NCBI GenBank assembly: GCA_964573995.1
Contig: CAZNLH010000001.1
Location: 112,810 to 176,809 of the forward strand
Direction: 5' to 3'
Source: an uncultured Gemmatimonadota bacterium
GTDB taxonomy: Bacteria; Gemmatimonadota; CAZMKB01; CAZNLH01
DNA: 64,000 bases
The notes beneath the pieces were generated by a model that did no database searches, had not been told where the DNA came from, and saw only the letters and a program-made list of their open reading frames with translations. Position 1 is the stretch's first letter, and the number at the start of each line of letters is the position of its first letter. Made by a program: the position numbers and the translations under genes. This document shows positions 20,122-64,000 of this stretch, one piece after another.

Positions 20122-20127
20122 ACGCCC

Positions 20128-51101: not shown

Positions 51102-51178
51102 TGGTACCCCTGGCGTGACTCGAACACGCGACACGCGGTTTAGGAAACCGCTGCTCTATCCTACTGAGCTACAGGGGC
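51102..51178 (-). tRNA. tRNA-Arg (anticodon CCU) with encoded CCA.
   Basis: Reverse complement reads GCCCCTG-TA-GCTC-AGTAGGATA-GAGC-A-GCGGT-TTCCTAA-ACCGC-GTGTC-GCGTG-TTCGAGT-CACGC-CAGGGGT-A-CCA. This gives a cloverleaf with a 7-bp acceptor stem, a T-loop TTCGAGT, and anticodon loop TT-CCT-AA. Confidence 0.85.
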
Positions 51179-51848: not shown

Positions 51849-52994
51849 TCCGTGGCCAATATAACCTGCAATGAAGTTGGCAAGAGGGCTCCTTCCCTCC
51901 TGATCGGCTGTCTGTTTCTCTCGCACCTCTTCCTCCTGCCGCAACCTGGATGGTCGGGGGAATATCATTCCTATCGAAATGGTACGCTGTATTGTGATGA
52001 ATGCCACCTGTCCTTAGTCTCCCCTAAAGACCTTCCGAGTACGGTACCTTCCGCCGCAGGTAAGCCTGCAGGATGGGCGGGCAACCCTTACCTCCTGAGA
52101 TATGATGGCAATGAAGTCTGCCTGTCATGCCATGACGATAACCCCGGGGCGGTGGACGTGGTTGGATTCAACAGGGGGGAGAAGCCGGGGATCGTGAGGG
52201 AGGCGGGTGCGCTCAACATGGTTTCCGGCGGTTATCCATACAGTGAAGAAAACGGCCACACTCTTGGCCTGGAAACTCCTGCTCCGGGAAGCGATCCCCA
52301 ATGGATACCTTCCGGCGGCCTGAAGTGCATCGATTGCCATGATCCACACGGGGAGAACCCAAACGGGAATTCCTATCGAAACCTGGTCGCTACCCCAGGC
52401 AACACCCCCTACCCCGGTATACTGGTGACGTATTCCTCGGGGACGAATGACCCAGGCAGCGATGTCTTTGTCCGCTGCATGGGAGGCTATGACGTGTCTG
52501 ATGTGGACTTCAATGAGCCATCCCCCGGCACTTCGGCAATGGCGGCGTTCTGTGGCGGATGCCACACCGATTTCCACGGCTCCAAGGGCGGACCGGAAGT
52601 AGGCGGAGCATCGGGAGTTGGCTGGATCCGACACCCCTCGAGTGATGCGGACATCGGCCACCTGGGCGGGCGCCATTCGCGCCGCGAGGTTTTTGCGGGG
52701 GAGTGGTCGAGAAAAGAAGACTTCGTCAAGGTCATGACAGGCACGGGGAACTGGAGGCCGCAAAGCGCCTCCGAGGTTGTCGATCACACGCCGACCTGCC
52801 TTACCTGCCACAAGGCACACGGCAACCGAAACCCGTTTGGGTTGATATTCATGGGCAACAATGGGCCTGTTAATGAAGAGGGTACGCCGGGCGGCAGTTA
52901 CACCGACCTGTGCCGCCAGTGCCATGTCCAGTCGCTTCGGAGAGATCACAATAGGCAAGCCGGGCGCTTCGCGGGCCGTCGGCCCGGATCTTGA
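51849..52994 (+). CDS. OmcS-family hexaheme c-type cytochrome (candidate nanowire subunit), paralog 1.
   Basis: Six CxxCH sites in OmcS-like order and context: 'YHSY..CDECH', 'CLSCHDD', 'CIDCHDPHGE', 'FCGGCHTDFHG...WIRHPSS', 'CLTCHKAHGN', 'DLCRQCHVQ'. Recalled G. sulfurreducens OmcS has 'FHSGGVAECEGCH', 'CLNCHQ', 'CSSCHDPHGK', 'WCANCHTDIHN...LRHPAG', 'CLSCHRAHASG', 'CNKCHAKD'. GTG 51849 follows GGAGG, and a signal peptide is present. Confidence 0.7.
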   Translation, partial: SVANITCNEVGKRAPSLLIGCLFLSHLFLLPQPGWSGEYHSYRNGTLYCDECHLSLVSPKDLPSTVPSAAGKPAGWAGNPYLLRYDGNEVCLSCHDDNPGAVDVVGFNRGEKPGIVREAGALNMVSGGYPYSEENGHTLGLETPAPGSDPQWIPSGGLKCIDCHDPHGENPNGNSYRNLVATPGNTPYPGILVTYSSGTNDPGSDVFVRCMGGYDVSDVDFNEPSPGTSAMAAFCGGCHTDFHGSKGGPEVGGASGVGWIRHPSSDADIGHLGGRHSRREVFAGEWSRKEDFVKVMTGTGNWRPQSASEVVDHTPTCLTCHKAHGNRNPFGLIFMGNNGPVNEEGTPGGSYTDLCRQCHVQSLRRDHNRQAGRFAGRRPGS

Positions 52995-53018: not shown

Positions 53019-54152
53019 CTACTGATCGACTCTCGCAAGATAGTGGCACTGGTCGCATCCCACGTAATTCACGGTACCCTCGACGGGGAATGTCATGGAA
53101 AACGCCTGATCCGAGCCGTGGGCCTTGTGACAGGAGAGGCAGAAGACCCCGTTGGTAGATGCGTCCACCACGAGCCCCCCACCGTATTCCGACGCGCCGT
53201 CCACAACAAACGGCACCCTCTCTGTTCCGATGAATCCGGACCCGCTGCCGAGTTCCCAGTGGGCGGGGTTTGTCGACCCCCTGTCTTCCCCCTGGTCGAT
53301 GTGGTTCGGTGAGTTTCGTTCGCTGTCATAGGTGGGATGCCTTGAGTGAATACCGTTTCCATCCGGGTCTATGTAAGATTCTCCTGAAAAGATGTGATGA
53401 CAGTCCAGACAGATATTGGATGCCTCGCGCAACTCCTCTGTGTTCAAGGTGCCGTAAGAGACGTGTTCGCTCTCGTACTTATCGAGCCCCGAGGCCGACG
53501 GGTCCACGAGAAGACCAATCGGGGGTGTTCCATCGGGATCTGACGCCCACTGCAGGTTCCTTGGATTACCATTGCCGTGTGGATTATGGCAGTCAATGCA
53601 TGTCACCTTCTGATCCGCAGGGTCACCCCAGTGGCATCGCATGCATAGTTCCCAGCCGCTCGGAAGGTCCCTTCCAAGGTCATGTCCATTGATGTTCTGC
53701 ACCTCAGGTTCCCCGAAGAATCCAGCCGACCGCTCGGTCAGACCGTTCACGTCGTTTCCTACTACATCGGGTACGCCCGACATGTTATCGTGGCATAACA
53801 GGCAGAGGTCGAGAGGATCTGGTGCAAGCAAAAGTTCCGGGTTTGGGGTGCCTTCCCATGGAAAGCCCGAAATGGCCCCTTCTCCTGAGTAGCCACCCTC
53901 ATGGTTGTGTTGCATGCTTGCATGCATTACGTGACAGTCCGTACAAACCAGGGTCTCACCGAAATGATACGGAGTGTATCCGCCCACCTGTGGCTCATCT
54001 TCGGTCCCCCGTCCCCCCGTCTGCTTATGGATCTGGTAACCTAACAACTCTTCCCGACCCATCTGGCCTGCATTCAACTGGGCCACAGACAATTGGAAGA
54101 TAAGGGCCGAAATTACAGAGAGACAGACAATTACATCCTTGCCCGCAGACAT
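53019..54152 (-). CDS. OmcS-family multiheme c-type cytochrome, paralog 2 (7 CxxCH).
   Basis: 'CTDCHVMHASMQ', 'CLLCHDN', 'CMRCHWGDP', 'CIDCHNPHGNGNP', 'CLDCHHIFSG...IHSRHPT', 'CLSCHKAHGSD', 'CDQCHY'. Signal peptide 'MSAGKDVIVCLSVISALIFQLSVAQ'. RBS 'aaaggagga'. Confidence 0.65.
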   Translation of the reverse strand: MSAGKDVIVCLSVISALIFQLSVAQLNAGQMGREELLGYQIHKQTGGRGTEDEPQVGGYTPYHFGETLVCTDCHVMHASMQHNHEGGYSGEGAISGFPWEGTPNPELLLAPDPLDLCLLCHDNMSGVPDVVGNDVNGLTERSAGFFGEPEVQNINGHDLGRDLPSGWELCMRCHWGDPADQKVTCIDCHNPHGNGNPRNLQWASDPDGTPPIGLLVDPSASGLDKYESEHVSYGTLNTEELREASNICLDCHHIFSGESYIDPDGNGIHSRHPTYDSERNSPNHIDQGEDRGSTNPAHWELGSGSGFIGTERVPFVVDGASEYGGGLVVDASTNGVFCLSCHKAHGSDQAFSMTFPVEGTVNYVGCDQCHYLARVDQ

Positions 54153-54296: not shown

Positions 54297-57200
54297 CTAC
54301 TTGAAGTCGGCGCCTACACGATGACACTGGATGCAGAGATCCCTCCGCTGGTCATGGGTAAGCATCTTCGAGTAGTCACTGGAATGGGGATCGTGACATG
54401 AAGCACATGTCATCCTTTCTCCGGTGCGGGGATCGATCGCCTCACCACCTACGGGGTGTATGTGTTTCATGTCCACCGCATCCTTGTGGCACCCGTAACA
54501 CAAATCGTTCACATTGACCGGAAGGAGGTACCGAGCCTTGGAATCATGCGGGTCATGGCACTTGGTGCATCCTTCCTCTAAGGGCGCGTGGAGGTTTTTC
54601 CCGCCAAGGATTCGTGCCCTGTCGTGGCAGGTAAAACAGGTCTCATCGCCCTCCCTCGAGAGGAGGTACTTGCCGAATCCCATGTGAGGATTGTGGCAAT
54701 TTGTACATCCGCCACCCCGCGACAAGGCCTTGTGGAGGTGAGGCTGGTCCAGTTTCTTGCGAAAATCTTTATGACAGCCGAGACACAGTTCCTGGCCCTT
54801 CAACCTTGTGCCAAAGTTCAACTTGGAGGTATGACAAGTCAGGCATCCCCCCCTAAAGGGCTCATGGACTACTGGGTATAGGAGTTTTTTCCCGCCCTTT
54901 GGGACGGAATGCGGGTCGTGGCAGCGGGTACAGTCTCCCTTCCCCACGGGGAATCCGGAATGTGCCGCCTCGAACGCAGGCTCCCCGGCATCATGACAAC
55001 TCAGGCAGAGGGTTGCCCCCTTCTTTTTCAAGAGGTATTCGTTGCTCGATGTGTGGGAATCGTGACAATCCCCGCAATCGCCATCCTTATATGGTGGGTG
55101 AAGGGCCTCCGTTTTGTAACCCTTCCCGAGTCTCTCATGACAACCGAAACACAGGGAAGGCGTGCCTTCCTTGAGTAGATTCTTCACCGCTCCGGAGTGC
55201 GGGACATGGCAACTGAGGCATTCGCCCTTTGCAACGGGGGCGTGGCTGAGCGAGGTTCTCGTTATACCCCTCATCCCCTCGTGGCACCGGTAGCACAATT
55301 TTTCCCCAGGAGCACGGAGTAATTTCTCGTTGCTCGATGCATGGGGGCTGTGGCAGGCCACACAATTCCCTTTGGTGACCGGGTCGTGAACCACCTCGGC
55401 ACCGGTAAAATCGTCGTCATGACACTGTAGGCAGAGTGCACTCCCCTCTTCGACCAGGCGCGCGGGCTCCCCCTTGCGCTTGGGTTCCACATGGCATGCG
55501 TCACACAACTTATCCTCAAAGGGAGGATGAAGATTCTTTCCCAACAACTTTGGCGATGCCGAGTTGTGAGGATCGTGGCAGTCTATGCAATTCGTCCCTT
55601 CAACCGAGTATCCGAGGTGCGCATTCCTGATGTTTTCGCTGTCCACCTGGTGGCAACTCTGGCACAACTTCTTCGGTTCCGCTACGAGGTTTACGGAGAA
55701 ATCCGAGGCATGAGGGTCGTGGCAGGTCAGGCACCCCTTTTCTGTAGTCAGAGGCTGGTGAACATTCCCGGTAAGATAGTCATCCCTGTCATGGCACTTA
55801 AGGCACAAGTCCGTTCCCTTCGCCTTGAGCAGACCAGGCCCCTCGCCACCGTGTGGATCGTGGCACCCGCTGCAATTTCCCTCTACCACAGGTGTGTGGA
55901 CAGAGGGCTTCGTCATGAGTTCTTCGATCTCAGAGTGGCAGGATATGCAGAGTTCACCCTGATCCTTGACCAGGAGCCCCTTGTTGCCCGCCGCATGGGG
56001 ATTGTGGCAATCGGTACAGGCTCCTTCGACGGCGGCGGGATGAGCACCATCGCCTGAAATCTTCTCCCCTATATCTTTATGGCACTGCGTACAGAGATCA
56101 TTTCCCCCTATCTTCAACATGGAATTACCGGTCGAGGCGTGGGGTGAATGGCAGGCCGAGCACTCACCCAATTCGAATGGGCTGTGCTGATTTACCTCCT
56201 TGAGCCTGTCCACCACGTCACCATGACACTTCAGGCATATTTCCTTTTGAGGCCCAACCAGCAGGGACGGCAACTTGGAACTGTGCGGCCTGTGACAGGA
56301 CAGGCATCCCGGGTCAAGGACCGGCGGATGAGTCCCCTCCCCCTTATCGATCGCCTCGTAGATATCCTTGTGACAGGAACGACACAGATCCGGCTTCGGG
56401 GACCTCAGCAGCGGACTCGTCCCGGAACCGTGAGGGTCGTGGCAACCTGTGCAATTACCCTCCTTTAGAGGGGGGTGAACCGATTTGTCATGAAGATCCT
56501 CTTCCCTTTCGGGGTGACAAGTAAGGCACAACTCGCCCTCGTCCTCCTTCAATAGCGCCTTTCTCTTGGACACATGAGGATCGTGACAGTCGGTGCACTC
56601 TCCATCGGATGCAGGCGGGTGGATCGATTCAGACCTGAGGGACGCCTCGATCTTGGAGTGACAGGTAAGGCAGATATCCTTCACGTCCTGCCTTAGATGG
56701 ACACCCCCCTCCCCGACCGGCTCCTCGTGGCAAGCGGTGCAGTCTCCCTCGAGCAGGGGTTCATGTGCGCTCTCGTTCAGTAATGCGGGCCTTGAAGATG
56801 CGTGGGGGTTGTGACAACTGTCGCATGACAGTTCCTTTATATCGAATCCCTTGTGTCCCTTGGATTGTGCAATATCCTCTTTACCATGGCACTTTCTGCA
56901 GAGCGTCTTCTCATCAGAGACCAGGAGGCCCCCGTACGATGAAGCATGGCTCTGATGGCAAGCCCCGCAGTCCTTATCGGCGAAGGGCTGATGCAGATGG
57001 GGTTTCTCGAGTTCCCTGGCGATGTCCTCGTGGCATGAAGTGCAGATGCCCTTTCCGCCGATCGATTTCAGGAGGGATGCATTGTCTGAGGCGTGAGGAT
57101 CGTGGCAGGCGATACAATTGCCTTCCTCGACAGGTGAGTGGACGACCTTCTTGCCGGCCTCTTTTTTGATATCCTCGTGACAGTTCAGACAGAGATCGGG

Positions 57201-57422
57201 CCCCGTCCTCTTCAAGGCGAGTTTCTGCTTAAAGCCGTGTCGGGCATGGCAGGCGTCACACTTTCCCCTTTTGACGGGGTCATGAATGATCTCCTTAGAC
57301 TGGAAGGCCTTCCGTGCCTGTTTGTGGCAATCATAGCAAGTCTTACGTTGAGCAATGAGGGGCAGGACCAGTAGGTTCTCCACGGTAAAGAACAGGAAGA
57401 GCGCCCGCCTCGTGCTGCCCAT
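54297..57422 (-). CDS. Giant periplasmic multiheme cytochrome c (~42 CxxCH), a polymer of cytochrome-c7/c3-like triheme repeats.
   Basis: Signal peptide present. Regularly spaced CxxCH motifs (~42 counted by eye) in repeating 'C..CH.PH.S......L....G..LC..CH' units across the whole length. The ATG overlaps the upstream gene's stop (TAATG). Confidence 0.85.
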   Translation of the reverse strand: MGSTRRALFLFFTVENLLVLPLIAQRKTCYDCHKQARKAFQSKEIIHDPVKRGKCDACHARHGFKQKLALKRTGPDLCLNCHEDIKKEAGKKVVHSPVEEGNCIACHDPHASDNASLLKSIGGKGICTSCHEDIARELEKPHLHQPFADKDCGACHQSHASSYGGLLVSDEKTLCRKCHGKEDIAQSKGHKGFDIKELSCDSCHNPHASSRPALLNESAHEPLLEGDCTACHEEPVGEGGVHLRQDVKDICLTCHSKIEASLRSESIHPPASDGECTDCHDPHVSKRKALLKEDEGELCLTCHPEREEDLHDKSVHPPLKEGNCTGCHDPHGSGTSPLLRSPKPDLCRSCHKDIYEAIDKGEGTHPPVLDPGCLSCHRPHSSKLPSLLVGPQKEICLKCHGDVVDRLKEVNQHSPFELGECSACHSPHASTGNSMLKIGGNDLCTQCHKDIGEKISGDGAHPAAVEGACTDCHNPHAAGNKGLLVKDQGELCISCHSEIEELMTKPSVHTPVVEGNCSGCHDPHGGEGPGLLKAKGTDLCLKCHDRDDYLTGNVHQPLTTEKGCLTCHDPHASDFSVNLVAEPKKLCQSCHQVDSENIRNAHLGYSVEGTNCIDCHDPHNSASPKLLGKNLHPPFEDKLCDACHVEPKRKGEPARLVEEGSALCLQCHDDDFTGAEVVHDPVTKGNCVACHSPHASSNEKLLRAPGEKLCYRCHEGMRGITRTSLSHAPVAKGECLSCHVPHSGAVKNLLKEGTPSLCFGCHERLGKGYKTEALHPPYKDGDCGDCHDSHTSSNEYLLKKKGATLCLSCHDAGEPAFEAAHSGFPVGKGDCTRCHDPHSVPKGGKKLLYPVVHEPFRGGCLTCHTSKLNFGTRLKGQELCLGCHKDFRKKLDQPHLHKALSRGGGCTNCHNPHMGFGKYLLSREGDETCFTCHDRARILGGKNLHAPLEEGCTKCHDPHDSKARYLLPVNVNDLCYGCHKDAVDMKHIHPVGGEAIDPRTGERMTCASCHDPHSSDYSKMLTHDQRRDLCIQCHRVGADFK

Positions 57423-57916
57423 TATTTCGACCCTCCCTTGTTCCTGATCACCGTCTCCTTTCCACCCCCCCGGTTTCCATCAGGTTTCTCTTCTCCAGCC
57501 CCCTGAGCCGTTCCGGTAGGCGAGACCTTGTAATCCTTTAGTTCGAAGGAGAGGAGTGATCTCCTGAAAAAATGGGGGGCACCCTTTCCACGGAAGGCCC
57601 ACGTTTCATCCACCTTCTTGTCCTTGTCGTATACAATCACCCGAACAGCGGGGTTGTTTAACTGGTCGGATCGAGAAATGACCTCTCCCGTCTTCAGGTT
57701 TACGGCAAAGTCTGGGATGAATTCCACCGCCTCGGCGGAATAATCCGTGTCAGAGAGGTAGAATCTCTCTCCCAGTCTCACGGTGTGTTCCTCGCGAAAG
57801 TCCTTGTATACCCTGTGGGTAGCGACCAGTGTAACGTTGTCGATCTTTATTGTCCCGGCTATTGCCCGGGATATGACAACTGTAGAAATCAAGATGAGAA
57901 AGACCGTGTACTTCAT
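57422..57916 (-). CDS. Hypothetical periplasmic protein (signal peptide) inside the cytochrome operon.
   Basis: 'MKYTVFLILISTVVISRAIAG'. ATGA overlap with the upstream gene and TAATG overlap with the downstream cytochrome. Confidence 0.45.
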   Translation of the reverse strand: MKYTVFLILISTVVISRAIAGTIKIDNVTLVATHRVYKDFREEHTVRLGERFYLSDTDYSAEAVEFIPDFAVNLKTGEVISRSDQLNNPAVRVIVYDKDKKVDETWAFRGKGAPHFFRRSLLSFELKDYKVSPTGTAQGAGEEKPDGNRGGGKETVIRNKGGSK

Positions 57917-58551
57917 CGCATCTCCTCCATTCTATGAAGGGATTCCCTCCTCAGGGATTTAACGACCTCGCGAGCCATGACCTCGGTCAGCCTGTCGAGG
58001 GATGTTATCCTCCCGATCCCGAAGACCTTTTCTGTGTCGTTGCCGTTCCTGGAGTAGGATGAGGCCCAGAGGATCTTTCCGCTGCCGGCGTCGACCATCT
58101 TGACGAGCAATGATATGAAGGGGACTTCGGTGACGTTGTAGCCCTGCACCTGCCTGATCCCGTATTCAAGGACAGTCCCCTCGATGAGTGCGGACACATT
58201 CAGATCGGATGCGATCTTCCGGGTCTGCTCACTCGAGAGTTCCGAGATGAAACGAATCCTTTCAGAGGTGAGGACACCCTCTACTTCCCCGGGATCGACC
58301 ACCGAAAACTTACCTGTTTTCAACAACTCTACCGTAAAGATATCGTGAACGTGCCTGGCGGCGCCCTCCGCATCCGTCAGGTTATCGAACGGAAGTACGG
58401 CGACACGAATCTCACCATGGAGTTTGAATTCATTGCTCGTGTATACCCTTGGACTGGGCGCGCACCCGGCGACTAAAGCGGTTGCGAGGAAAACAGACAA
58501 CTTCCTAAATTTCCTGTCCTTGAGATTCATGGCGCATAATACGTGGATCAC
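57913..58551 (-). CDS. Lipoprotein with a CsgG/LpoB/DUF799-like N-terminal fold, paralog A.
   Basis: Lipobox 'LVAGC'. Motif 'EIRVAVLPFDNLTDAEGAARHVHDIFTVELLKTGKFSVVDP'. Confidence 0.45.
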   Translation of the reverse strand: MIHVLCAMNLKDRKFRKLSVFLATALVAGCAPSPRVYTSNEFKLHGEIRVAVLPFDNLTDAEGAARHVHDIFTVELLKTGKFSVVDPGEVEGVLTSERIRFISELSSEQTRKIASDLNVSALIEGTVLEYGIRQVQGYNVTEVPFISLLVKMVDAGSGKILWASSYSRNGNDTEKVFGIGRITSLDRLTEVMAREVVKSLRRESLHRMEEMR

Positions 58552-58578: not shown

Positions 58579-59226
58579 TCAATATCCTATCCGGTCGACT
58601 ATGTCTTTACACACCTTCTGGGTCATCTCTCCAAGGGTATACGTCTCCCCGAGGCTGATAATTGGGAGGTGGGGTCCTCCCTTCCTCGTGTGGCTGATCA
58701 TCCACACGACCTTTCCTGTCTCGACATCGATCAATTCAACGTCGACGGTAACGAGCGGGTACGATGTCTGTCCTATCCTCACCATCTCGTAATCTCGAAC
58801 CGTTCCCGTTATGATTCCCTGGACTTCGGCTTCGCTCCCCAGTTTCTTGATATTGTCGAGTTTCCACTCTCCTCCTGAATCTATTCCGCCGCTCAATATC
58901 CCCCTCGCCTTTTCGCGGAACTGCCCCGGCTCCACGACATCGAAACTCTTCTTGACCAGGAGTTCTGTAATCAGCGCATTGGCGACCTTCTCACCGGCCA
59001 GTCGGTCGTTGGTTAGGTTCTTAAAGGGCAAGACACCGATGGTCTCATAGTACGAGATATCGACGTCCTGGTGTATAAAGGTCCTCGGCCCACCGCAACC
59101 CATCAAACAGGCCGGGAGCAGGCAGGTCAACGATATCGTTATACGGCGCCTTAAGGTGGATACGATAATCTCTCTGGCGGCCGGCGGACCTTTCTCGCCT
59201 CTTCTCTGGTGTTCATCGGAATTCAT
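58579..59226 (-). CDS. Lipoprotein with a CsgG/LpoB/DUF799-like N-terminal fold, paralog B.
   Basis: Lipobox-like 'CLMGC'. Motif 'GVLPFKNLTNDRLAGEKVANALITELLVKKSFDVVEP', paralogous to the gene downstream. Confidence 0.45.
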   Translation of the reverse strand: MNSDEHQRRGEKGPPAAREIIVSTLRRRITISLTCLLPACLMGCGGPRTFIHQDVDISYYETIGVLPFKNLTNDRLAGEKVANALITELLVKKSFDVVEPGQFREKARGILSGGIDSGGEWKLDNIKKLGSEAEVQGIITGTVRDYEMVRIGQTSYPLVTVDVELIDVETGKVVWMISHTRKGGPHLPIISLGETYTLGEMTQKVCKDIVDRIGY

Positions 59227-59230
59227 AGCG

Positions 59231-60874
59231 CTAAAACCACTTCACAAGATTGATCCCCAGGTTGCTTATCCTTCTGTTTCCGGAGATCATCTGGGTATCA
59301 AGGCTCAAACGAAGGTTCGCGCGTTCCCTGAGCTTCAGGTTCATCTGGAAGAGGAGCCCCTCCTGGGCCCCGGAAAAGGACGTCGGCTGTGTTAAGGCCT
59401 CCCCATTGGCCCTGGACCGGGAATTTCTCCGGTTGTATATCAGGGAGAGACCCGAGCCGCCCGAAAAGAGGTAGTTCAGTGTCCCCGTAACGAGGTAATC
59501 ATGACGCCCGAAGACCCTGCGGTCGTCTTCCCTCGCTACGGTCCAGAGGGTCGTCAGGCGTGGAGCCGGCTGATAATTGAGGCTCATCTGCAAAGTCGAT
59601 GATTGGGTGTCTAACCAGGGGACCTTTTCTCCGTATGATAGTGTCCGGAGGCCGAAATCGAGCATCAGCCTTCCGGTTGGGACGGTGCGAAGATCGAGCG
59701 TCCGCCGTACCTGGAATCGTCCTGTTGTAACGCCGGGGTTTTCCGATTGTGTGATATTGTAATCGGAATTCAGGCTTATGCCGCGATAGACCTGCGCAAC
59801 CACGCTGAACAGATACCCATGTGAAGGAAAACTGCCCTCCTTGCTCCTGATGATGTATGTCCTTGTGAACGCCGCCCTCCCTTCGATCCTTTCACGAATT
59901 CTACCGTGAAGGCGTGCCTCGGCACGGAGGAAATCGGACGTCGATTCCCCTCCTTCCTGCATTATCCGGCGATAATCCCTGGAACCAGATATCGAGAGAT
60001 AATCGGTCGGCATGAACCTCATACCAGAGACTACCTCGGACAGGGAGGAGTTCTCGCTGCCCTGCCCCTCTCTCCTTATGTAATTGCCGAGGAACGAGGT
60101 GTAGCCTGACAGGCGGGCCAGCGGCTTGATCGAAGCCCGGGCACTCATGTTATTGACCATAGACTTGCCGATGAATTCCGGCCCTCCCCGATCGTCCGTG
60201 TATAGATAATCATAGTCCACCGTGAGGCTTGCCCGCCGGGGAAAGGGGATACGGGCACCAAGCCCCCCGCTTATATCCCGTATCCTGCGATTACCACTAT
60301 TGTCGACCCTGTCGACCATCTTCCTCTCCCTTAGAAGTGATCGATAATTCATGAACTTGTATTCGTATGTCATGTTGACCAGCCTGTCCACCTTGAGCAT
60401 ATCGACCCTGCCAGCGCCTGTCCCTCCACCCACCCTCTCGTTCCGGTCATATGTAACGCTGGTCACCGGTGCCTTGGGAGGCGACACGACAAGGTTAAAC
60501 CGCCTGCCCCTTCCGTGCAGTGCCGCCGGGCCGGAAGCGCTGTTGAGCCTATAGCGCGGGGAGAGATCGCCGGTGAATGTGTAATACTTCCCTGTCATGT
60601 TGGTGCGCCACCGCTGGCGGATGGCCCCTCCGGGCTGCGTACCTGCCGAATACCGCTGGAGAAAATAACTCAGGGTCAAGAGGTTTTTTGTGAAAAGGGC
60701 ATCCGCCACGGAAATATCCAGTTCCTGGTCAAAGTTTTGACTCCTCGTGTCCTCGAATCTGGTGCTCAGGTAGTCGAGGTTGAGCCGACCCCTGAAGTTC
60801 GCCTGAGAGAACAGCCCGGCGGGCTCCATGGAGAACGCCAGTAAGGCCGCAGAGGCAGACAACAGCCTCCACAT
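59231..60874 (-). CDS. Outer-membrane beta-barrel protein, a candidate porin or secretin partner of the cytochromes.
   Basis: Signal peptide 'MWRLLSASAALLAFS'. Alternating amphipathic beta-strand pattern throughout. C-terminal '...LGINLVKWF' has the OMP terminal aromatic. The track ORF extends to 60985. Confidence 0.55.
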   Translation of the reverse strand: MWRLLSASAALLAFSMEPAGLFSQANFRGRLNLDYLSTRFEDTRSQNFDQELDISVADALFTKNLLTLSYFLQRYSAGTQPGGAIRQRWRTNMTGKYYTFTGDLSPRYRLNSASGPAALHGRGRRFNLVVSPPKAPVTSVTYDRNERVGGGTGAGRVDMLKVDRLVNMTYEYKFMNYRSLLRERKMVDRVDNSGNRRIRDISGGLGARIPFPRRASLTVDYDYLYTDDRGGPEFIGKSMVNNMSARASIKPLARLSGYTSFLGNYIRREGQGSENSSLSEVVSGMRFMPTDYLSISGSRDYRRIMQEGGESTSDFLRAEARLHGRIRERIEGRAAFTRTYIIRSKEGSFPSHGYLFSVVAQVYRGISLNSDYNITQSENPGVTTGRFQVRRTLDLRTVPTGRLMLDFGLRTLSYGEKVPWLDTQSSTLQMSLNYQPAPRLTTLWTVAREDDRRVFGRHDYLVTGTLNYLFSGGSGLSLIYNRRNSRSRANGEALTQPTSFSGAQEGLLFQMNLKLRERANLRLSLDTQMISGNRRISNLGINLVKWF

Positions 60875-60881
60875 TGAGATT

Positions 60882-63032
60882 CTACCATCTCTCCTGCTCA
60901 CTTTCCCTCGTCTTGACGGCCTCTCTCTCTCCCTCAGACGGGTGATGCACGTTAAGGCTGTTTGAGGACGAATAATCACGTCCATGGCAGTCGTAACATG
61001 AAGCCTCTCTCCCTGAGTAATGTTCCTGTACCTCGCTCGGGATGGTATTCATGATGATTCCTTCTACTGAACGCGAGCCCGGTACTCCGTCTGCAGGGAT
61101 GTGACAACCGAAGCAGAAACGGCGTGTCTGCTGCGGATCGTTCAGGGTATCAGTCAACCCGCTCCAACCGTCTCGCTGATCACTGATCAGGAAGCCGTTT
61201 GGCTGAACGCCGTCATGTCCCAATGACCCGTGCGGGTTGTGACAATCGTAACATGGAAGTTTGTCACCCTTCTGGACGTAATTCGGCCAGGACAGTGCTA
61301 TGTCGTCGGACATCTTGATCTGGTGCCCTGCCCGATCGTCATTATTGATCCTCGAGTCATAATAATCTGATATCCTCCGGTTTTCTTCATCCATGCCGAC
61401 CGGCCCGTCGGGGCCATGGCACCGGAAACATAGTTCGTAATGCTCCGGAGGACCCACTTCTCCCGACCCGCTTATCTCCAAGTAAGGATACAGTAGCAGG
61501 TCGAAGGGGTTATCCGTAACGTGCGGGTCGTGACAATTGATGCAGAGCCCATTTCCGGCCTGGTCGCGAAGCGGCATGTCGCGGTCGTTCCTGTGGGGGG
61601 AAAAGTACCTCCCATCACCGAAAGTCCTCTGGTCGGTATATGCAACCATTCCGGGCCACCTCTTGCGGTTCTTGACACCTGTAATTCTTTCTCCACCGCT
61701 ATTGTACTCGAAGTATCCGGGGGAGGAGGACCCTTCCGGCAGCCGGTCTGTCTCCTGAGCCGGGTATCCCGTGGGGATGTCTCCGTGGCAACCGCCCCTG
61801 CCGGATGGATCGAAACAGAGATTGTTGGTGTTCTCACAGAACAGCCCGTAAGGAAATGGACCGCCGGTGGGATTTCCGTCTACGCTGGCGTGCATATAAT
61901 GGCACTGGGAACACTCTCCCACGGTGGGTGGGTCGGTGACCACCCTTTCCACTCCGCTCAGTGCGTCGCCATGTTGACTATCGAGGAATATCCTGCCGTA
62001 GTGGCATTGCGTGCACGTCTCTGACATCCTCTGCCCGTCTTCGTGGGGTAAAGTCTCGCTATCGTCATAGATCAGGAGGTACTTGTGCGAGGATCCATGT
62101 GCCTTGTGGCATGAACCGCAAAACGCTTCATTGTCGCTGTCGGCCGACGAGCCCGGGACCTCGGTTGGCGAAACAACCGCAACACGCGATACAAGCCCTG
62201 AAAACCAGCCATCGCCTCCAAGGTGACCGTTGCGATAGCCATCCGACATCGTCACGTCTCGTGTTGGGTGACGTAACCACTCGTTCCCAGGTCCAGTATC
62301 ACCGCTGGGGCTTCCGCCCATTTCGTGACCTCCCCCAGGGCCGTGAAACTCTCCATGACATCCCCCGCACCACCTGGATAAGCCGACCTCGTTTCCTCCG
62401 GACATCAACCGCCTGTAACGGATGTTCTCTACCGAGTAGCGGATAGATGGTGGGGTCGTCTCTATCTCCTGCACCGAGGAAGATCCGTCGTAGACCTGGC
62501 CCCGTGTTACCGTGACGAGGGCCTGGCCCTGCCCGCCAGGGTTCTCCACTAAATTACGGTAATACTGATTTCCATGAGGATCATGGCAGGATGTACACGT
62601 CAGTGTGGACGACCATGCTCCACCGGTATATCCGGGTGGACTCTCGCCCGACCCGAGGGAGTGTCGGTTTTCCTCGACTATCTGGCCGCCGCTCGTAAAA
62701 CTTCCAGCGGCCGATTCGTATCCGACAGGGTCCTCTACGTTGGGGGCGTTAGGGTTGCTGCCGTCATGACAATTGAGGCACAACTGATTCGTCGTCTGAT
62801 CGATGATCAATCTCTCAAAGGGCCCGCCGGGTTCCGATCCGGGTGGGATTTCCCCGTTTTGCGAGTAGTGCATTGTATGACAATCCGAGCAGAGGAGGCC
62901 ATCGTGTCCCAACTCGCTATCGGCCGACAGGCCTTTGCATCCCAAGGCTACATACCAAAGGAGCATAGTGAAGGACCAGGCGAATACCCAGTTGTATGTG
63001 AAATAAGGGTGAAAGGATGATCCGTGAATCAT
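60882..63032 (-). CDS. Doubled OmcS-family cytochrome: two tandem hexaheme OmcS-like modules (12 CxxCH), possibly a lipoprotein.
   Basis: Module 1: 'CSDCHTMHYS', 'QLCLNCHDGSNP', 'CTSCHDPHGNQ', 'WCGGCHGEFHG...WLRHPTRD', 'CGSCHKAHGSS', 'CTQCHYG'. Module 2: 'CSQCHYMHAS', 'CINCHDPHVTDNP', 'CFRCHGPDG', 'CYDCHNPHGS', 'CFGCHIP', 'CYDCHGRDYS'. The N-terminal hydrophobic segment ends in '...VALGC'. Confidence 0.7.
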   Translation of the reverse strand: MIHGSSFHPYFTYNWVFAWSFTMLLWYVALGCKGLSADSELGHDGLLCSDCHTMHYSQNGEIPPGSEPGGPFERLIIDQTTNQLCLNCHDGSNPNAPNVEDPVGYESAAGSFTSGGQIVEENRHSLGSGESPPGYTGGAWSSTLTCTSCHDPHGNQYYRNLVENPGGQGQALVTVTRGQVYDGSSSVQEIETTPPSIRYSVENIRYRRLMSGGNEVGLSRWCGGCHGEFHGPGGGHEMGGSPSGDTGPGNEWLRHPTRDVTMSDGYRNGHLGGDGWFSGLVSRVAVVSPTEVPGSSADSDNEAFCGSCHKAHGSSHKYLLIYDDSETLPHEDGQRMSETCTQCHYGRIFLDSQHGDALSGVERVVTDPPTVGECSQCHYMHASVDGNPTGGPFPYGLFCENTNNLCFDPSGRGGCHGDIPTGYPAQETDRLPEGSSSPGYFEYNSGGERITGVKNRKRWPGMVAYTDQRTFGDGRYFSPHRNDRDMPLRDQAGNGLCINCHDPHVTDNPFDLLLYPYLEISGSGEVGPPEHYELCFRCHGPDGPVGMDEENRRISDYYDSRINNDDRAGHQIKMSDDIALSWPNYVQKGDKLPCYDCHNPHGSLGHDGVQPNGFLISDQRDGWSGLTDTLNDPQQTRRFCFGCHIPADGVPGSRSVEGIIMNTIPSEVQEHYSGREASCYDCHGRDYSSSNSLNVHHPSEGEREAVKTRESEQERW

Positions 63033-63036
63033 TTAA

Positions 63037-64000
63037 TCATTGCTTATTGTTAGGTCTATCCGTTACCGGCACCTTGAAGGCCTGAAACCGCGCAATTCCC
63101 TTTTCCAGGATAAACAACCTCCCTCTTGATCCGAACGCGATATCGAGTGGGAAAAAGAGTTTCCCTGGCTCGGTCCCCATTTCACCATACTCTTTCACGA
63201 AGGTTCCATCCTCCGAGTATACCTTTACAGCATGCTGGAAAGTGTCCACGATCCACAACTTGCCCCTTGGTCCAACCGCTCCTGCTATGGGGAACGAGAA
63301 TTTACCCGCGCTTGAACCGTGAAGACCAAAGTGATTGACGAGGCGCCCATCCCGGCCTATTACATGAACGGCATATCCCCTCGAAGAGATCAGGATCGTT
63401 TCTCCTCCACGCGCTCCCTGCACTACATCTTGGAGTGCCACCCCCTCATTCTCCTCCTTGGGGAAGGTGTAAAACAGGCCGGTATTTCTACTGTCCATAT
63501 CCAGCCGCATAACGTCCCTCCCGAAACGACCCGCGACGAGGAGCCTGCCCCCCGAGTCAAAGCCCATACCGCCGGGGGAAAATCGTCCCCTTGACGATGA
63601 CTTCAGGTCTATGGGCTCCATGCCCACTTGGTCCCTGCCCACAGACCATATCCTGGGCATGTCCTGCTCCCCGATGACGAGTGTGCCGTTCCCGGCGACG
63701 GCCAATTTAAAGGGAATCCTCAGCGTCCTGTCCAGGCGCAACTTGTGCAGGTACCGGCCTTCCTGATCGTAGACGATTACCTGGCGCCTACCCCTGTCAG
63801 AGATGTAGACCTCGTTGCGAATGGTGTCGACTGCAATAGCGCCGGGCTTCAAGAGCGGCTCATCATGTTCCGCTTCTTCTACCGAGAATAAGAAATCCCA
63901 CCCCGACCCGCCCCCGGTTCCTCCTCCAGCCGTAACGCCACTACCCGCCAGGATGAACAACAGTAGAATCAGCACGAGCCTTACGGCCTCTCTTTTCCTC
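63037..64000 (-). CDS. NHL-repeat beta-propeller protein. The 5' end probably lies beyond the window.
   Basis: Repeated NHL-like blades: 'AIAVDTIRNEVYISDRGRRQVIVYD', 'GMGFDSGGRLLVAGRFGRDVMRLD', 'LDIAFGSRGRLFILEKGIARFQAF'. The ORF is open to the window edge upstream of GTG 63975. Confidence 0.6.
   Translation of the reverse strand, partial: RKREAVRLVLILLLFILAGSGVTAGGGTGGGSGWDFLFSVEEAEHDEPLLKPGAIAVDTIRNEVYISDRGRRQVIVYDQEGRYLHKLRLDRTLRIPFKLAVAGNGTLVIGEQDMPRIWSVGRDQVGMEPIDLKSSSRGRFSPGGMGFDSGGRLLVAGRFGRDVMRLDMDSRNTGLFYTFPKEENEGVALQDVVQGARGGETILISSRGYAVHVIGRDGRLVNHFGLHGSSAGKFSFPIAGAVGPRGKLWIVDTFQHAVKVYSEDGTFVKEYGEMGTEPGKLFFPLDIAFGSRGRLFILEKGIARFQAFKVPVTDRPNNKQ

What the first reader, a model, noticed from the sequence alone, without database searches (positions are those of the whole stretch)
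54297..57422. ~42-heme c7-repeat polymer cytochrome co-transcribed with the OmcS-like genes
The 1041-aa protein has CxxCH every ~20-25 residues along its whole length, in triheme-type repeat units like Geobacter c7-polymer cytochromes such as the GSU1996 class. It is more than three times as long as those. With a signal peptide and no lipobox, it is probably a periplasmic electron 'wire' or capacitor feeding the outer-membrane components. Its start codon overlaps the stop of the upstream small gene, so it is the last gene of the operon.
Basis: seen in the sequence. Interest (0 to 1): 0.6.

Follow-up and report, generated by a model that had tools for sequence, protein, structure and literature searches.

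The report
Fused 42-heme periplasmic electron wire
The gene is real and encodes a secreted protein carrying exactly 42 hemes; it looks like a stretched version of the Shewanella electron conduit MtrA, formed by fusing two cytochromes (26 + 16 hemes) that other bacteria encode as neighbouring genes beside OmcS-type "nanowire" cytochromes, so it probably wires the inner membrane to the cell surface.

Summary
ORF 54297-57422 (-) encodes 1041 aa with exactly 42 CxxCH motifs. All 84 Cys lie in motifs; about 0.6 motifs would be expected by chance. The same 3126-nt gene occurs in two other metagenome assemblies, and 88 collinear homologue clusters (33-40% identity) also have 42 hemes, so it is not an artefact.

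The repeat is a 48-aa diheme "paired CXXCH" unit repeated 21 times, not a triheme c7 unit. The only clear solved relative is MtrA of the Mtr complex, by both sequence profile and predicted fold. The c7 polymer GSU1996 scores at superfamily background.

Main new result: 42 = 26 + 16. Residues ~3-644 align end-to-end with 26-heme proteins, and residues ~654-1036 with 16-heme proteins. Those two are adjacent genes in OmcS-companion (osc)-type clusters, with matching heme-spacing fingerprints.

The surrounding conserved cluster encodes:
- OmcS-like hexaheme cytochromes
- NHL propellers
- a predicted 28-strand barrel whose best structural match is MtrB
- two lipoproteins
- a translationally coupled stand-alone ResB-domain protein

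The gene is not the last on its strand.

Best reading: it is the periplasmic leg of an extracellular electron-transfer machine, a new variant of a known kind.

The parts
54297..57422 (-). 42-heme c-type cytochrome, 1041 aa. It consists of 21 tandem diheme 'paired CXXCH' units.
   Evidence: ORF. 42 CxxCH, with every Cys in a motif. 48-aa period. Pfam and NCBIfam hits. AF2 mean pLDDT 85.5. Only significant PDB fold match is MtrA 6r2q_A. Identical gene in two other assemblies.
57351..57422 (-). Signal peptide, residues 1-24. Likely cleavage LIA|QRK. No lipobox.
   Evidence: By inspection. The same LPLIAQRKTCYDCH junction is present in the L008 orthologue. Homologues have A-x-A immediately before the first heme motif.
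55491..57350 (-). OscI-like module, residues 25-644, hemes 1-26.
   Evidence: 26-heme proteins from L011, L012 and L014 align end-to-end to residues 3/9/24-644. The spacing fingerprints match: 28 at gap 8 and 28 at gap 25.
55434..55490 (-). Fusion linker, residues 645-663 (VEPKRKGEPARLVEEGSAL), between heme 26 and heme 27.
   Evidence: The linker varies in length and sequence among 42-heme homologues. It lies where the 26-heme proteins end (CH-x-GG-x-K) and where the 16-heme proteins carry their own signal peptide. Conservation is low here, 0.33.
54300..55433 (-). OscJ-like module, residues 664-1041, hemes 27-42.
   Evidence: 16-heme proteins from L011, L012 and L014 align best to residues 654/664-1036. 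The spacing fingerprints match: 29/20/26 and 31/24.
57422..57916 (-). Secreted 164-aa protein, translationally coupled to the cytochrome gene. It is a stand-alone homologue of the periplasmic domain of ResB/CcsB, a System II cytochrome c biogenesis protein.
   Evidence: No Pfam hit of its own. Exhaustive phmmer finds 218 representatives, and the long ones are PF05140 ResB proteins. BLASTP to ResB P0392 residues 272-379 gives 33% identity, E 2e-15. hhalign probability 96.9%. Present next to the 42-heme gene in L001, L002, L005, L007 and L008.
57913..58551 (-). Lipoprotein 2 (lipobox LVAG|C) with a CsgG/LpoB-like fold. The start codon is uncertain; other assemblies' gene calls give 195-205 aa.
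   Evidence: Pfam CsgG E 3.8e-7. Lipobox. Orthologues in all related clusters, including the 26+16 clusters. Only weak PDB hits to GNA1162 and PelC, E 0.2-0.9, not significant.
58579..59226 (-). Lipoprotein 1 (lipobox LMG|C), LpoB/CsgG-like.
   Evidence: Pfam LpoB E 1.3e-5. Lipobox. 38-41% identical orthologues in L002 and L005-L007. Homologues in L011 and L012.
59231..60874 (-). Outer-membrane protein, about 543-547 aa, with a signal peptide and a C-terminal ...VKWF. It is predicted to form a 28-strand beta-barrel.
   Evidence: No Pfam hit. AF2 pLDDT 77 with 28 strands. Top PDB fold match is MtrB 6r2q_B, E 1.5e-8, TMq 0.53. Orthologues in L002 and L005-L008.
60882..63032 (-). 12-heme lipoprotein cytochrome (lipobox ALG|C). 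It is a tandem fusion of two OmcS-like hexaheme modules.
   Evidence: 12 CxxCH and a lipobox. The N-half and the C-half match separate hexaheme proteins in L002, L006 and L007; the fused form is also present in L005 and L008.
63037..63975 (-). NHL beta-propeller protein. Its start lies beyond the window end (324 aa in L013).
   Evidence: Pfam NHL and DUF5128. Orthologues in all related clusters. Two more NHL genes and another OmcS-like gene lie further upstream in L013.
53019..54152 (-). 7-heme OmcS-like cytochrome, 377 aa from the ATG behind the GGAGG. Same strand, immediately downstream of the 42-heme gene.
   Evidence: 7 CxxCH. RBS and start codon. 49% identical to the L006 7-heme protein. 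A member of alignment A5, whose profile hits OmcS 6ef8_A at E 2.6e-12.
51852..52994 (+). 6-heme OmcS-like cytochrome on the convergent strand, 380 aa as called in L013.
   Evidence: 6 CxxCH. 40-48% identical orthologues in L002 and L005-L007. 237 bits to the L012 hexaheme protein. The A5 profile hits OmcS.

Best explanation
What it is (shown). It is a Sec-exported, non-lipidated c-type cytochrome with 42 covalently bound hemes. It has about 24.8 residues per heme and no domain other than the heme chain. The chain is 21 tandem 48-aa 'paired CXXCH' diheme units, each of the form H-x-P...C-x-x-C-H-x-P-H...L-C-x-x-C-H. At least 38 non-motif His are invariant and no Met is conserved, so heme ligation is essentially all bis-His. 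Its nearest solved relative, by sequence profile and by predicted fold, is MtrA, the decaheme wire that sits inside the MtrB barrel.

Origin (shown). It is an in-frame fusion of two cytochromes. In OmcS-companion (osc)-type clusters these are separate adjacent genes: a 26-heme protein (the size and heme count reported for G. sulfurreducens OscI/GSU2495) and a 16-heme protein (in the gene position of OscJ/GSU2494).

How it most likely works (inferred). It is the periplasmic leg of an extracellular electron-transfer machine encoded by the same conserved cluster. Electrons from inner-membrane quinol dehydrogenases enter one end of the heme chain. They hop heme to heme along a rigid wire that would be roughly 35-40 nm long if extended like MtrA. 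They leave at an outer-membrane portal made of the 28-strand MtrB-like barrel and two lipoproteins. From there they pass to the 12-heme lipoprotein and the OmcS-like hexaheme cytochromes outside. The flow could equally run in the reverse direction.

Most likely one end is sheathed by the barrel as MtrA is by MtrB. This would make diffusible periplasmic carriers unnecessary. The translationally coupled ResB-domain protein probably assists maturation or handling of this very long apocytochrome.
For: Identity:
- 42 CxxCH and a 48-aa period.
- Paired_CXXCH_1 752 bits in 22 stretches; DmsE-family model 456 bits, above its cut-off.
- MtrA 6r2q_A is the best PDB sequence hit: E 3e-19 with the single sequence and 5e-32 with the family profile. 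It is also the only significant fold match to a pLDDT-85 model, covering all of MtrA with TMt 0.55.
- All 42 motifs and 38 further His are invariant in 39 sequences.

Fusion:
- The 26-heme proteins of L011, L012 and L014 align end-to-end to residues 3-644. The adjacent 16-heme proteins align to residues 654-1036.
- The irregular spacing fingerprints match in both parts.
- The junction is a variable linker at the position where the split forms have a C-terminus followed by a signal peptide.

Context:
- The same gene set occurs in L002, L005, L006, L007 and L008: OmcS-like hexahemes, NHL proteins, a ~545-aa OMP, two lipoproteins, the small protein and the 42-heme gene.
- The OMP is modelled as a 28-strand barrel whose top PDB match is MtrB, from the same PDB entry as MtrA.
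- The neighbours are OmcS-like.
- In L008 the cluster adjoins NrfD/4Fe-4S/tetraheme, NapC/NirT-like and cytochrome-b-fused multiheme genes, i.e. candidate quinol dehydrogenases.

Length constraint:
- 88 clusters from Zixibacteria, Krumholzibacteria, Latescibacteria, Gemmatimonadaceae, GN15 and other FCB-group bacteria keep exactly 42 hemes.

Literature:
- The osc operon GSU2501-GSU2493 is linked to OmcS nanowire maturation and secretion. GSU2495 is ~70 kDa with 26 hemes and is listed as periplasmic (PMC13194489; PMC12977616).
- MtrA is about 100 A long for 10 hemes, and long MtrA-like proteins have already been proposed to span the periplasm (PMC5566968).
Against: - No coordinates of the AF2 model could be inspected, so the overall shape (straight, bent or folded back) is unknown. 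pTM is only 0.57.
- Insertion into the barrel is an analogy, not a result. The barrel gene is three genes away, and it shows no detectable sequence similarity to MtrB or to the large unannotated proteins of the 26+16 clusters.
- The barrel model rests on 13 sequences. Its fit to MtrB is loose (rmsd 12.8 A).
- In Geobacter the homologous lipoprotein and channel components are proposed to secrete OmcS, not to sheathe a cytochrome (PMC13194489).
- No inner-membrane partner is encoded in this window.
- One related cluster (L006) lacks the ResB-domain gene, and one (L001) has only the small gene plus the 42-heme gene.
- GSU2495 and GSU2494 themselves could not be compared. The OscI/OscJ equation rests on heme count, size, gene order and the PPIase neighbour.
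Confidence: 0.55

Rival explanations
1. Periplasmic 'charger' that is not inserted in the barrel. On this reading the barrel and the two lipoproteins form the secretion and anchoring channel for the OmcS-like subunits, as proposed for OscEFG in Geobacter. The 42-heme protein stays wholly in the periplasm and passes electrons to the base of the extracellular cytochromes.
For: - The lipoproteins are homologous to those of the 26+16 osc-type clusters (64-76 bits).
- OscE/F/G are proposed to act in secretion (PMC13194489).
- The barrel gene directly follows the 12-heme OmcS-like lipoprotein gene, not the 42-heme gene.
- The weak lipoprotein resemblance to ring-forming PelC is only a lead (E 0.4-0.9).
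Against: - The barrel's best structural match is MtrB and the cytochrome's best match is MtrA, the two chains that interlock in one solved complex.
- A 28-strand barrel is wider than is needed for unfolded export.
- The two roles are not mutually exclusive.
Confidence: 0.3
2. Free periplasmic capacitor. On this reading the protein mainly stores up to 42 electrons when acceptors are scarce and is not a fixed conduit.
For: - High heme density with no other domain.
- A capacitor role has been proposed for large multiheme cytochromes (PMC7399161).
Against: - Storage capacity would not demand an exact, collinear 42-heme architecture with conserved spacing fingerprints across several phyla.
- Both termini are somewhat more conserved than the middle, which suggests specific end contacts (weak evidence).
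- The tight synteny with outer-membrane components argues against a free-floating role.
Confidence: 0.1
3. Exported wire. On this reading the chain is threaded through the barrel so that most of it projects from the cell surface as a single-polypeptide nanowire about 30 nm long.
For: - The fold is rod-like and MtrA-like, and the barrel is wide.
- The protein has no lipid anchor.
- The neighbours are extracellular-type OmcS-like cytochromes.
Against: - Some family members, and the 26-heme relatives, carry lipoboxes that would tether the N-terminus to a membrane on the periplasmic side.
- GSU2495 and GSU2494 are listed as periplasmic (PMC13194489).
- The cluster already encodes dedicated surface cytochromes.
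Confidence: 0.07
4. c7-type polymer of the GSU1996 class, made of triheme domains.
For: - Pfam Cytochrome_C7 is above its cut-off (171 bits).
- GSU1996 (3ov0_A) is hit at E 6.6e-10 by the family profile.
Against: - The period is 48 aa, i.e. 2 hemes.
- Paired_CXXCH_1 scores 752 bits.
- NCBIfam cytochrome c7 scores 17 bits against a cut-off of 120.
- MtrA scores 113 bits against 40 for GSU1996.
- No c7 polymer appears among the fold matches.
- No Met ligand is conserved.
Confidence: 0.02
5. Frameshift or misassembly that wrongly joins two genes.
For: Split 26-heme and 16-heme genes do exist in other lineages.
Against: - An identical gene is present in two other assemblies.
- There are 88 fused homologue clusters from many sources.
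- The junction is an in-frame linker with no remnant of a stop codon or signal peptide.
Confidence: 0.01

Closest known systems
MtrA of the MtrCAB porin-cytochrome complex (PDB 6R2Q chain A), and the DmsE/MtoA/PioA family
   Same: - Paired-CXXCH diheme repeats, about 25 residues per heme, bis-His ligation and a type-I signal peptide.
- It is the best and only significant solved relative by sequence and by fold.
- The NCBIfam DmsE-family model scores above its cut-off.
- A large beta-barrel whose best structural match is MtrB is encoded in the same cluster.
   Different: - 42 hemes instead of 10.
- The barrel gene is not adjacent, has no detectable sequence similarity to MtrB, and is predicted to have 28 strands rather than 26.
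- The surface partners are OmcS-like, not MtrC-like.
- The cluster has extra lipoproteins, NHL proteins and a ResB-domain partner.
OscI (GSU2495, 26 hemes) and OscJ (GSU2494) of the Geobacter sulfurreducens omcS-companion (osc) operon
   Same: - Giant paired-CXXCH cytochromes encoded beside OmcS-like hexahemes, an NHL propeller and small lipoproteins.
- 26-heme and 16-heme proteins from three osc-type clusters, all with a PPIase gene upstream, align collinearly to the two parts of the window protein.
- The heme count and size match the literature description of GSU2495 (PMC12977616).
   Different: - Here the two proteins are fused into one 42-heme chain.
- No OscH-type PPIase is present within the cluster or in the related 42-heme clusters. 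A stand-alone ResB-domain protein takes its place next to the cytochrome gene.
- The large channel component is not detectably homologous.
- The host is an unnamed lineage, probably of the FCB group, not Desulfuromonadia.
- The Geobacter sequences themselves were not available for comparison.
PCC3 porin-cytochrome clusters of Proteobacteria (He et al. 2017, PMC5566968)
   Same: - A porin with very heme-rich, repeat-built, low-residue-per-heme periplasmic and extracellular cytochromes.
- The periplasmic one was proposed to be a molecular wire able to bridge the two membranes.
   Different: - The PCC3 periplasmic cytochrome has a median of 21 hemes and a variable count.
- PCC3 includes a conserved 5-TM di-b-heme inner-membrane protein that is absent here.
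- The PCC3 extracellular partner has about 34 hemes, not OmcS-like hexahemes.
- PCC3 is found in a different taxon set.
GSU1996 / GSU0592 c7-type dodecaheme polymers
   Same: Multiheme superfamily, high heme density and an elongated chain of hemes. Superfamily-level profile hit at 40 bits.
   Different: They are built of triheme c7-type domains. By my own knowledge each domain has one His-Met heme. The window protein has a 2-heme period, no conserved Met, and fails the NCBIfam c7 model.

Membership tests
Cytochrome c7 polymers (GSU1996 class) | The repeat unit is a triheme c7-type domain (3 CxxCH per ~70-80 aa). | tested here: not met
   The autocorrelation peak is at 48 aa, with harmonics at 96, 145 and 193, and nothing at ~72. 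Heme spacing alternates 23/25.
Cytochrome c7 polymers (GSU1996 class) | Scores as cytochrome c7 in curated models and is closest to GSU1996 among solved structures. | tested here: not met
   NCBIfam NF043011 scores 17.2 bits against a cut-off of 120. 3ov0_A scores 40 bits against 113 for MtrA. It is absent from the Foldseek matches.
Cytochrome c7 polymers (GSU1996 class) | One His-Met-coordinated heme per domain (feature taken from my own knowledge of the GSU1996 structure). | tested here: not met
   The protein has only 8 Met, and no Met column is invariant or nearly invariant among 39 homologues.
MtrA/DmsE/MtoA/PioA decaheme family | Paired-CXXCH architecture that passes the curated family model. 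| tested here: met
   TIGR03508 scores 456.5 bits against a cut-off of 192.2, as a sum over 10 stretches. Paired_CXXCH_1 appears 22 times.
MtrA/DmsE/MtoA/PioA decaheme family | MtrA-like fold. | tested here: met
   Foldseek gives 6r2q_A at E 2.6e-7 with TM 0.55 normalised to MtrA, over 267 columns of a 265-residue target. It is the only hit with E<=0.001.
MtrA/DmsE/MtoA/PioA decaheme family | Ten hemes in a protein of ~300-350 aa. | tested here: not met
   The window protein has 42 hemes in 1041 aa. I therefore do not file it as a member, only as built like one.
MtrA/DmsE/MtoA/PioA decaheme family | Encoded next to an MtrB-type porin that sheathes it. | tested here: inconclusive
   A predicted 28-strand barrel has MtrB as its top structural match. 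It lies three genes away and has no detectable sequence homology to MtrB. Physical insertion was not tested.
osc (OmcS-companion) cluster, OscI/OscJ-type cytochromes | Encoded in a cluster with OmcS-like hexaheme cytochromes. | tested here: met
   The profile of the neighbouring hexahemes hits OmcS 6ef8_A at E 2.6e-12 over OmcS residues 128-338. The window has three such genes, and a fourth lies upstream in L013.
osc (OmcS-companion) cluster, OscI/OscJ-type cytochromes | Homology to the 26-heme and adjacent 16-heme cytochromes of PPIase-containing osc-type clusters. | tested here: met
   Scores are 394-398 bits to the 26-heme and 212-250 bits to the 16-heme proteins. The alignments are collinear and end-to-end to residues 3-644 and 654-1036, with matching spacing fingerprints, in three clusters.
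osc (OmcS-companion) cluster, OscI/OscJ-type cytochromes | Accessory set: NHL/beta-propeller protein and small lipoproteins of the channel module. | tested here: met
   The NHL protein scores 62-71 bits and the lipoproteins 64-76 bits to the L011 and L012 counterparts.
osc (OmcS-companion) cluster, OscI/OscJ-type cytochromes | An OscH-type prolyl-isomerase chaperone gene directly upstream of the giant cytochrome. | tested here: not met
   There is no Rotamase domain in window 51-64 kb, in the 7.5 kb upstream (L013), or within +/-10 kb of the 42-heme gene in L002 and L005-L008. A ResB-domain gene sits there instead. Rotamase is present in L011, L012 and L014.
osc (OmcS-companion) cluster, OscI/OscJ-type cytochromes | Direct orthology to G. 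sulfurreducens GSU2495 and GSU2494. | not testable with these tools
   The Geobacter sequences were not retrievable.
PCC3 (He et al. 2017) | A conserved ~300-aa inner-membrane protein with 5 TM helices and two WX3HX13H motifs in the cluster. | tested here: not met
   No such gene was found among the cluster ORFs in the window or in L013. The feature is as defined in PMC5566968.

The most novel reading that the evidence does not exclude
The 42-heme chain is a fixed-length molecular ruler. It would be a single polypeptide hard-wiring the inner membrane, across the whole periplasm and through a 28-strand barrel, to OmcS-type extracellular cytochromes. The natural fusion would then show that the 26-heme OscI-like and 16-heme OscJ-like proteins of Geobacter-type clusters dock head-to-tail to form the same 42-heme wire. 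That would supply the missing link between OmcS-type nanowires and the cell interior. A dedicated ResB-domain protein would mature or escort this very long apocytochrome.
Probability: 0.3. Interest if true: 0.75.

Novelty: new variant of a known kind. Interest (0 to 1): 0.6.

Why it matters
How extracellular cytochrome wires of the OmcS type are anchored in the envelope and fed with electrons is still described as speculative (PMC12307469). The current proposal relies on small diffusible triheme carriers (PMC10954620).

This locus bears on that question in four ways:
- In several little-studied phyla (Zixibacteria, Krumholzibacteria, Latescibacteria, Gemmatimonadota and the unnamed host here), OmcS-like genes travel with a strictly 42-heme MtrA-like wire and an MtrB-like barrel.
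- The wire is a fusion of the two giant cytochromes of the Geobacter osc operon. This is a 'Rosetta-stone' argument that those two proteins act as one continuous conduit.
- That gives a concrete, testable model for a diffusion-free electron path across the envelope, and a length constraint that can be checked by cryo-ET.
- It also widens the set of uncultured lineages that can be flagged as candidates for extracellular electron transfer in sediments and aquifers.

Tried and rejected
1. c7-polymer reading: rejected on periodicity, curated models, PDB ranking and the absence of conserved Met.
2. Assembly artefact: rejected.
3. A simple internal duplication of 21 + 21 hemes. Most homologues have a ~20-aa insert exactly between hemes 21 and 22. 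However, the spacing fingerprints of the two halves differ, and the real seam is at 26|16.
4. The search for related loci with the family alignment failed because it had no conserved 7-10-column stretch. With the single protein it returned only two distant loci, so phyletic distribution rests on the names attached to protein hits.
5. The word-indexed protein search returned nothing above 40% identity, although a 58.5% orthologue (L008) and identical copies exist. The exact protein is not in that collection, so family size is underestimated.
6. Literature searches for a described '42-heme' protein or a Zixibacteria/Latescibacteria porin-cytochrome cluster found nothing specific. Shen et al. 2025 could not be read.
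7. Sequence similarity between the window barrel and the large unannotated proteins of the 26+16 clusters: none was found by phmmer or hhalign.
8. A solved relative for the small ResB-like protein: none.
9. Taxonomy from IleRS. The closest named relatives are only ~50-53% identical and come from many phyla, so the result is uninformative.
11. Terminator and promoter scans around the cluster found no more sites than in shuffled sequence.

Full report
**1. The observation**

The minus-strand ORF 54297..57422 is intact and encodes 1041 aa. It contains exactly 42 CxxCH motifs and no variant heme motifs. All 84 cysteines lie in those motifs, and there are 89 histidines. For this composition about 0.6 motifs would be expected by chance (my arithmetic).

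The start ATG overlaps the TAA of the upstream 164-aa ORF (TAATG), with a GGGAGGG run 8 nt upstream. The N-terminus has the layout of a type-I signal peptide. No Cys precedes the first heme motif, so there is no lipobox.

This fails on three counts:
- The same 3126 nt are found, base for base, in two other JGI metagenome assemblies. One of them differs elsewhere in the locus at 0.05%.
- A 58.5%-identical 42-heme orthologue lies in the same gene order in a third sample.
- Among the database homologues, 88 clusters of 986-1100 aa carry exactly 42 motifs with a collinear spacing pattern.

**2. Repeat architecture**

Autocorrelation peaks at 48 residues, with harmonics at 96, 145 and 193, and shows nothing near 72. 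Heme spacing alternates 23 and 25 residues. The unit is therefore a diheme module repeated 21 times: H-x-P-...-C-x-x-C-H-x-P-H-...-L-C-x-x-C-H.

Curated models agree:
- Pfam Paired_CXXCH_1 scores 752 bits in 22 stretches, against 171 bits for Cytochrome_C7.
- The NCBIfam DmsE/MtrA-family decaheme model scores 456 bits (cut-off 192).
- The Geobacter cytochrome c7 model scores 17 bits (cut-off 120).

In an alignment of 39 full-length homologues all 42 motifs and 38 further His are invariant. No Met is conserved. This points to essentially all bis-His ligation and argues against c7-polymer-type His-Met hemes.

**3. Structure**

An AF2 model built on that alignment has mean pLDDT 85.5 and pTM 0.57. 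Against the PDB, the only match with E<=0.001 is chain A of 6R2Q, 'Structure of the Mtr complex'. It is covered over its whole length with TM 0.55 normalised to the target. That chain is MtrA by my knowledge; the sequence file labels it oddly.

By sequence the same chain is the top hit, at E 3e-19 with the single protein and 5e-32 (113 bits) with the family profile. The c7 polymer GSU1996 (3ov0_A) scores 40 bits, the same as MtrF, UndA, NrfB and HmcA. The protein is therefore built like a four-fold-extended MtrA, not like a c7 polymer.

I could not inspect coordinates, so the overall shape and length are not determined. MtrA is about 100 A long for ten hemes (PMC5566968). By proportion, an extended 42-heme chain would be roughly 35-40 nm. 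That is an inference.

**4. Origin: 42 = 26 + 16**

More distant hits fall into discrete heme-count classes, notably 26 hemes in ~670-690 aa. I looked up three of these (L011, L012, L014). In each, the 26-heme gene is immediately followed by a 16-heme gene, overlapping or 20 nt apart.

- The 26-heme proteins align end-to-end with residues 3/9/24-644 of the window protein, i.e. hemes 1-26.
- The 16-heme proteins align best with residues 654/664-1036, i.e. hemes 27-42.
- The irregular spacings that interrupt the 23/25 rhythm coincide in both parts: 28 at gap 8 and 28 at gap 25; then 29/20/26 and 31/24.

At the seam the split proteins end ...C-x-x-C-H-x-G-G-x-K, and the next protein begins with its own signal peptide. 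The fused proteins instead have a 10-20-residue linker of variable sequence, and conservation is low there. The window protein is thus a natural fusion of these two cytochromes. Most 42-heme homologues also carry a ~20-aa insert between hemes 21 and 22 that this protein lacks. That position is not the seam.

**5. Genomic context**

On the same strand, from upstream to downstream, the cluster runs:

| Gene | Coordinates | Features |
|---|---|---|
| NHL propeller | 63975-63037 | start lies beyond the window |
| 12-heme lipoprotein | 63032-60882 | two fused hexaheme modules |
| OMP, ~545 aa | 60874-59231 | ends ...KWF |
| Lipoprotein 1 | 59226-58579 | LpoB/CsgG-like |
| Lipoprotein 2 | 58551-57913 | LpoB/CsgG-like |
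| Small 164-aa protein | 57916-57422 | ResB-domain homologue |
| 42-heme gene | 57422-54297 | this finding |
| 7-heme cytochrome | 54152-53019 | OmcS-like |

A 6-heme cytochrome converges on the other strand (51852-52994). In the longer contig L013, two more NHL genes and another hexaheme gene lie upstream.

The same gene set, with orthologues at 20-54% identity, surrounds the 42-heme gene in a Latescibacterota genome (L002), a Krumholzibacteria contig (L007), L005, L006 and L008. A Zixibacteria genome (L001) keeps only the small-gene/42-heme pair.

The OMP is modelled at pLDDT 77, from 13 sequences, as a 28-strand barrel. Its best PDB match is chain B of the same 6R2Q entry, which is MtrB: E 1.5e-8, TMq 0.53, rmsd 12.8 A.

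The 129-144-nt spacer after the 42-heme gene has no terminator-like hairpin and is less structured than shuffled controls. The 42-heme gene is therefore not the last gene on its strand.

**6. The small partner**

The 164-aa protein has no Pfam or NCBIfam hit. An exhaustive phmmer search finds 218 representatives, and the long ones are bona fide ResB (PF05140) proteins. It aligns to residues 272-379 of a 457-aa ResB at 33% identity, E 2e-15. hhalign gives 96.9% probability against another ResB.

It is therefore a secreted, stand-alone copy of part of the periplasmic domain of the System II cytochrome c biogenesis protein, translationally coupled to the 42-heme gene. A role in maturing or escorting the 42-site apocytochrome is my inference.

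It is absent from the three 26+16 clusters, which instead have a ~545-aa prolyl-isomerase gene directly upstream of the 26-heme gene.

**7. Comparison with what is known**

The literature describes the G. sulfurreducens osc (omcS-companion) operon as follows (PMC13194489; PMC12977616):
- OmcS, OmcT and the OmcS-like OscC (GSU2501) are followed by an eight-gene block, GSU2500-GSU2493.
- That block is linked to nanowire morphology (OscD), secretion (OscE/F/G) and folding (OscH).
- It also contains the periplasmic cytochromes OscI (GSU2495, ~70 kDa, 26 hemes) and OscJ (GSU2494).

The primary paper, Shen et al. 2025, is not held. From memory of its abstract, OscH contains a prolyl isomerase, OscEFG is 'channel-like' and OscD is 'beta-propeller-like'.

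L011 and L014 reproduce this order: hexaheme-like gene, ~690-aa protein, lipoprotein, ~505-aa protein, lipoprotein, PPIase, 26-heme, 16-heme, NHL. The window cluster shares with them the OmcS-like cytochromes (237 bits), the NHL protein (62-71 bits), both lipoproteins (64-76 bits) and the giant cytochromes. It does not share the PPIase, and its barrel shows no detectable similarity to their large unannotated proteins.

I therefore file the locus as an osc-like cluster variant, and the 42-heme protein as a fused OscI+OscJ-type cytochrome with an MtrA-like build. Direct comparison with the Geobacter sequences was not possible.

PCC3 clusters of Proteobacteria (PMC5566968) are conceptually similar: a porin with very heme-rich periplasmic and extracellular cytochromes, proposed to span the envelope. 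They differ in heme counts and partners, and in a conserved inner-membrane protein that is absent here.

**8. Mechanism**

Shown:
- a secreted 42-heme bis-His chain of MtrA-like build;
- its fusion origin;
- conserved synteny with OmcS-like cytochromes, an MtrB-like predicted barrel, lipoproteins and a ResB-domain protein.

Inferred:
- The protein carries electrons between inner-membrane quinol dehydrogenases and the outer-membrane portal and surface cytochromes. None of these dehydrogenases is encoded in the window. In L008 the cluster adjoins NrfD/FeS/tetraheme, NapC/NirT-like and cytochrome-b-fused multiheme genes.
- One end probably sits in the barrel, as MtrA does in MtrB.
- The near-invariant count of 42 across phyla suggests a length constraint.
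- The direction of electron flow cannot be read from sequence.

The main rival keeps the protein wholly periplasmic and assigns the barrel and lipoproteins to secretion of the OmcS-like subunits, as proposed in Geobacter. The two are not exclusive. Capacitor and exported-wire readings are less likely but not excluded.

**9. Host**

IleRS has only unnamed relatives at ~70% identity. Named relatives are ~50-53% identical and come from many phyla. A subtilase with a type-IX-secretion sorting domain lies upstream in L013. The 42-heme family is named mostly from FCB-group phyla. Both point to an FCB-related uncultured lineage, but this is not settled.

**10. Verdict**

It is right on heme count, export, OmcS-like neighbours and the wire idea. 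It is wrong on the c7 triheme architecture and on operon position.

The feature is a new variant of a known kind. I found no description of the 42-heme fused form, its strict conservation, or the ResB-domain partner in the searchable literature. The key paper could not be read, so prior description cannot be excluded.

Noticed in passing
window 57422-57916 (-): The small gene translationally coupled to the 42-heme gene is a secreted, stand-alone homologue of part of the ResB/CcsB periplasmic domain (System II cytochrome c biogenesis). The family has about 218 representatives at 50% identity and no Pfam model. It takes the position that a prolyl-isomerase gene holds in the 26+16-heme clusters.
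   Followed up: yes
window 60882-63032 (-): The 12-heme lipoprotein is itself a fusion of two different OmcS-like hexaheme modules. These are separate genes in L002, L006 and L007, but are fused also in L005 and L008. The JGI gene call for it (479 aa) omits 237 N-terminal residues that carry four CxxCH motifs and the lipobox.
   Followed up: partly
homologues P0001-P0091 (relative to window residues 517-545): Most 42-heme homologues carry a ~20-aa insertion exactly between hemes 21 and 22; the median spacing there is 43 against 23 in the window protein. Its meaning is unknown. It is not the 26|16 fusion seam.
   Followed up: partly
L008:1-1723 and 18075-21662: In the closest other cluster, the neighbours include a multiheme cytochrome fused to a Ni_hydr_CYTB-type cytochrome b, an NrfD + 4Fe-4S + tetraheme set, and a NapC/NirT-like cytochrome. 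These are candidate inner-membrane quinol dehydrogenases that could feed the wire. Nothing comparable lies in the window.
   Followed up: no
L013:3-1988 (about 5.5-7.5 kb beyond the window's 64000 end): A subtilase with a type-IX-secretion C-terminal sorting domain (Por_Secre_tail/CHU_C) lies upstream of the cluster. This hints that the unnamed host belongs to the FCB group.
   Followed up: no
P0080, P0083, P0090, P0056; L011:10001-12016; L014:8262-10283: A minority of 42-heme homologues, and the 26-heme proteins of L011 and L014, have lipoboxes (e.g. LVGSC, LISC, LALSC). In those organisms the N-terminal end (heme 1) of the chain would be membrane-tethered. This could orient the wire if the sorting destination were known.
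   Followed up: no
window 54297-57422 (-) versus the protein database: The word-indexed search returned no hit above 40% identity, although identical and 58.5%-identical genes exist in JGI assemblies. Those gene products also have no precomputed Pfam hits on record. Highly repetitive multiheme proteins seem to be under-served by that index.
   Followed up: partly
window 3644-6727 (+): A 1027-aa ORF combines an RsbW-like HATPase_c_2 domain, HAMP, a SpoIIE/PP2C phosphatase and C-terminal transposase-like HTH_23/28/29/32 domains. This is an unusual combination, and it could be a fusion with an IS remnant.
   Followed up: no
window 51102-51178 (-): tRNA-Arg(CCT) lies just past the convergent OmcS-like gene and marks the low-coordinate end of the cytochrome cluster. 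A sigma-70-like promoter match (11 of 12) sits at 51314-51286.
   Followed up: no
window 57913-58551 (-) and 58579-59226 (-): The two cluster lipoproteins are paralogues of each other (27-30% identity across orthologue pairs). Their only PDB resemblances, GNA1162 and the ring-forming PelC, are statistically insignificant (E 0.2-0.9). A PelC-like ring under the barrel is a lead worth modelling.
   Followed up: partly
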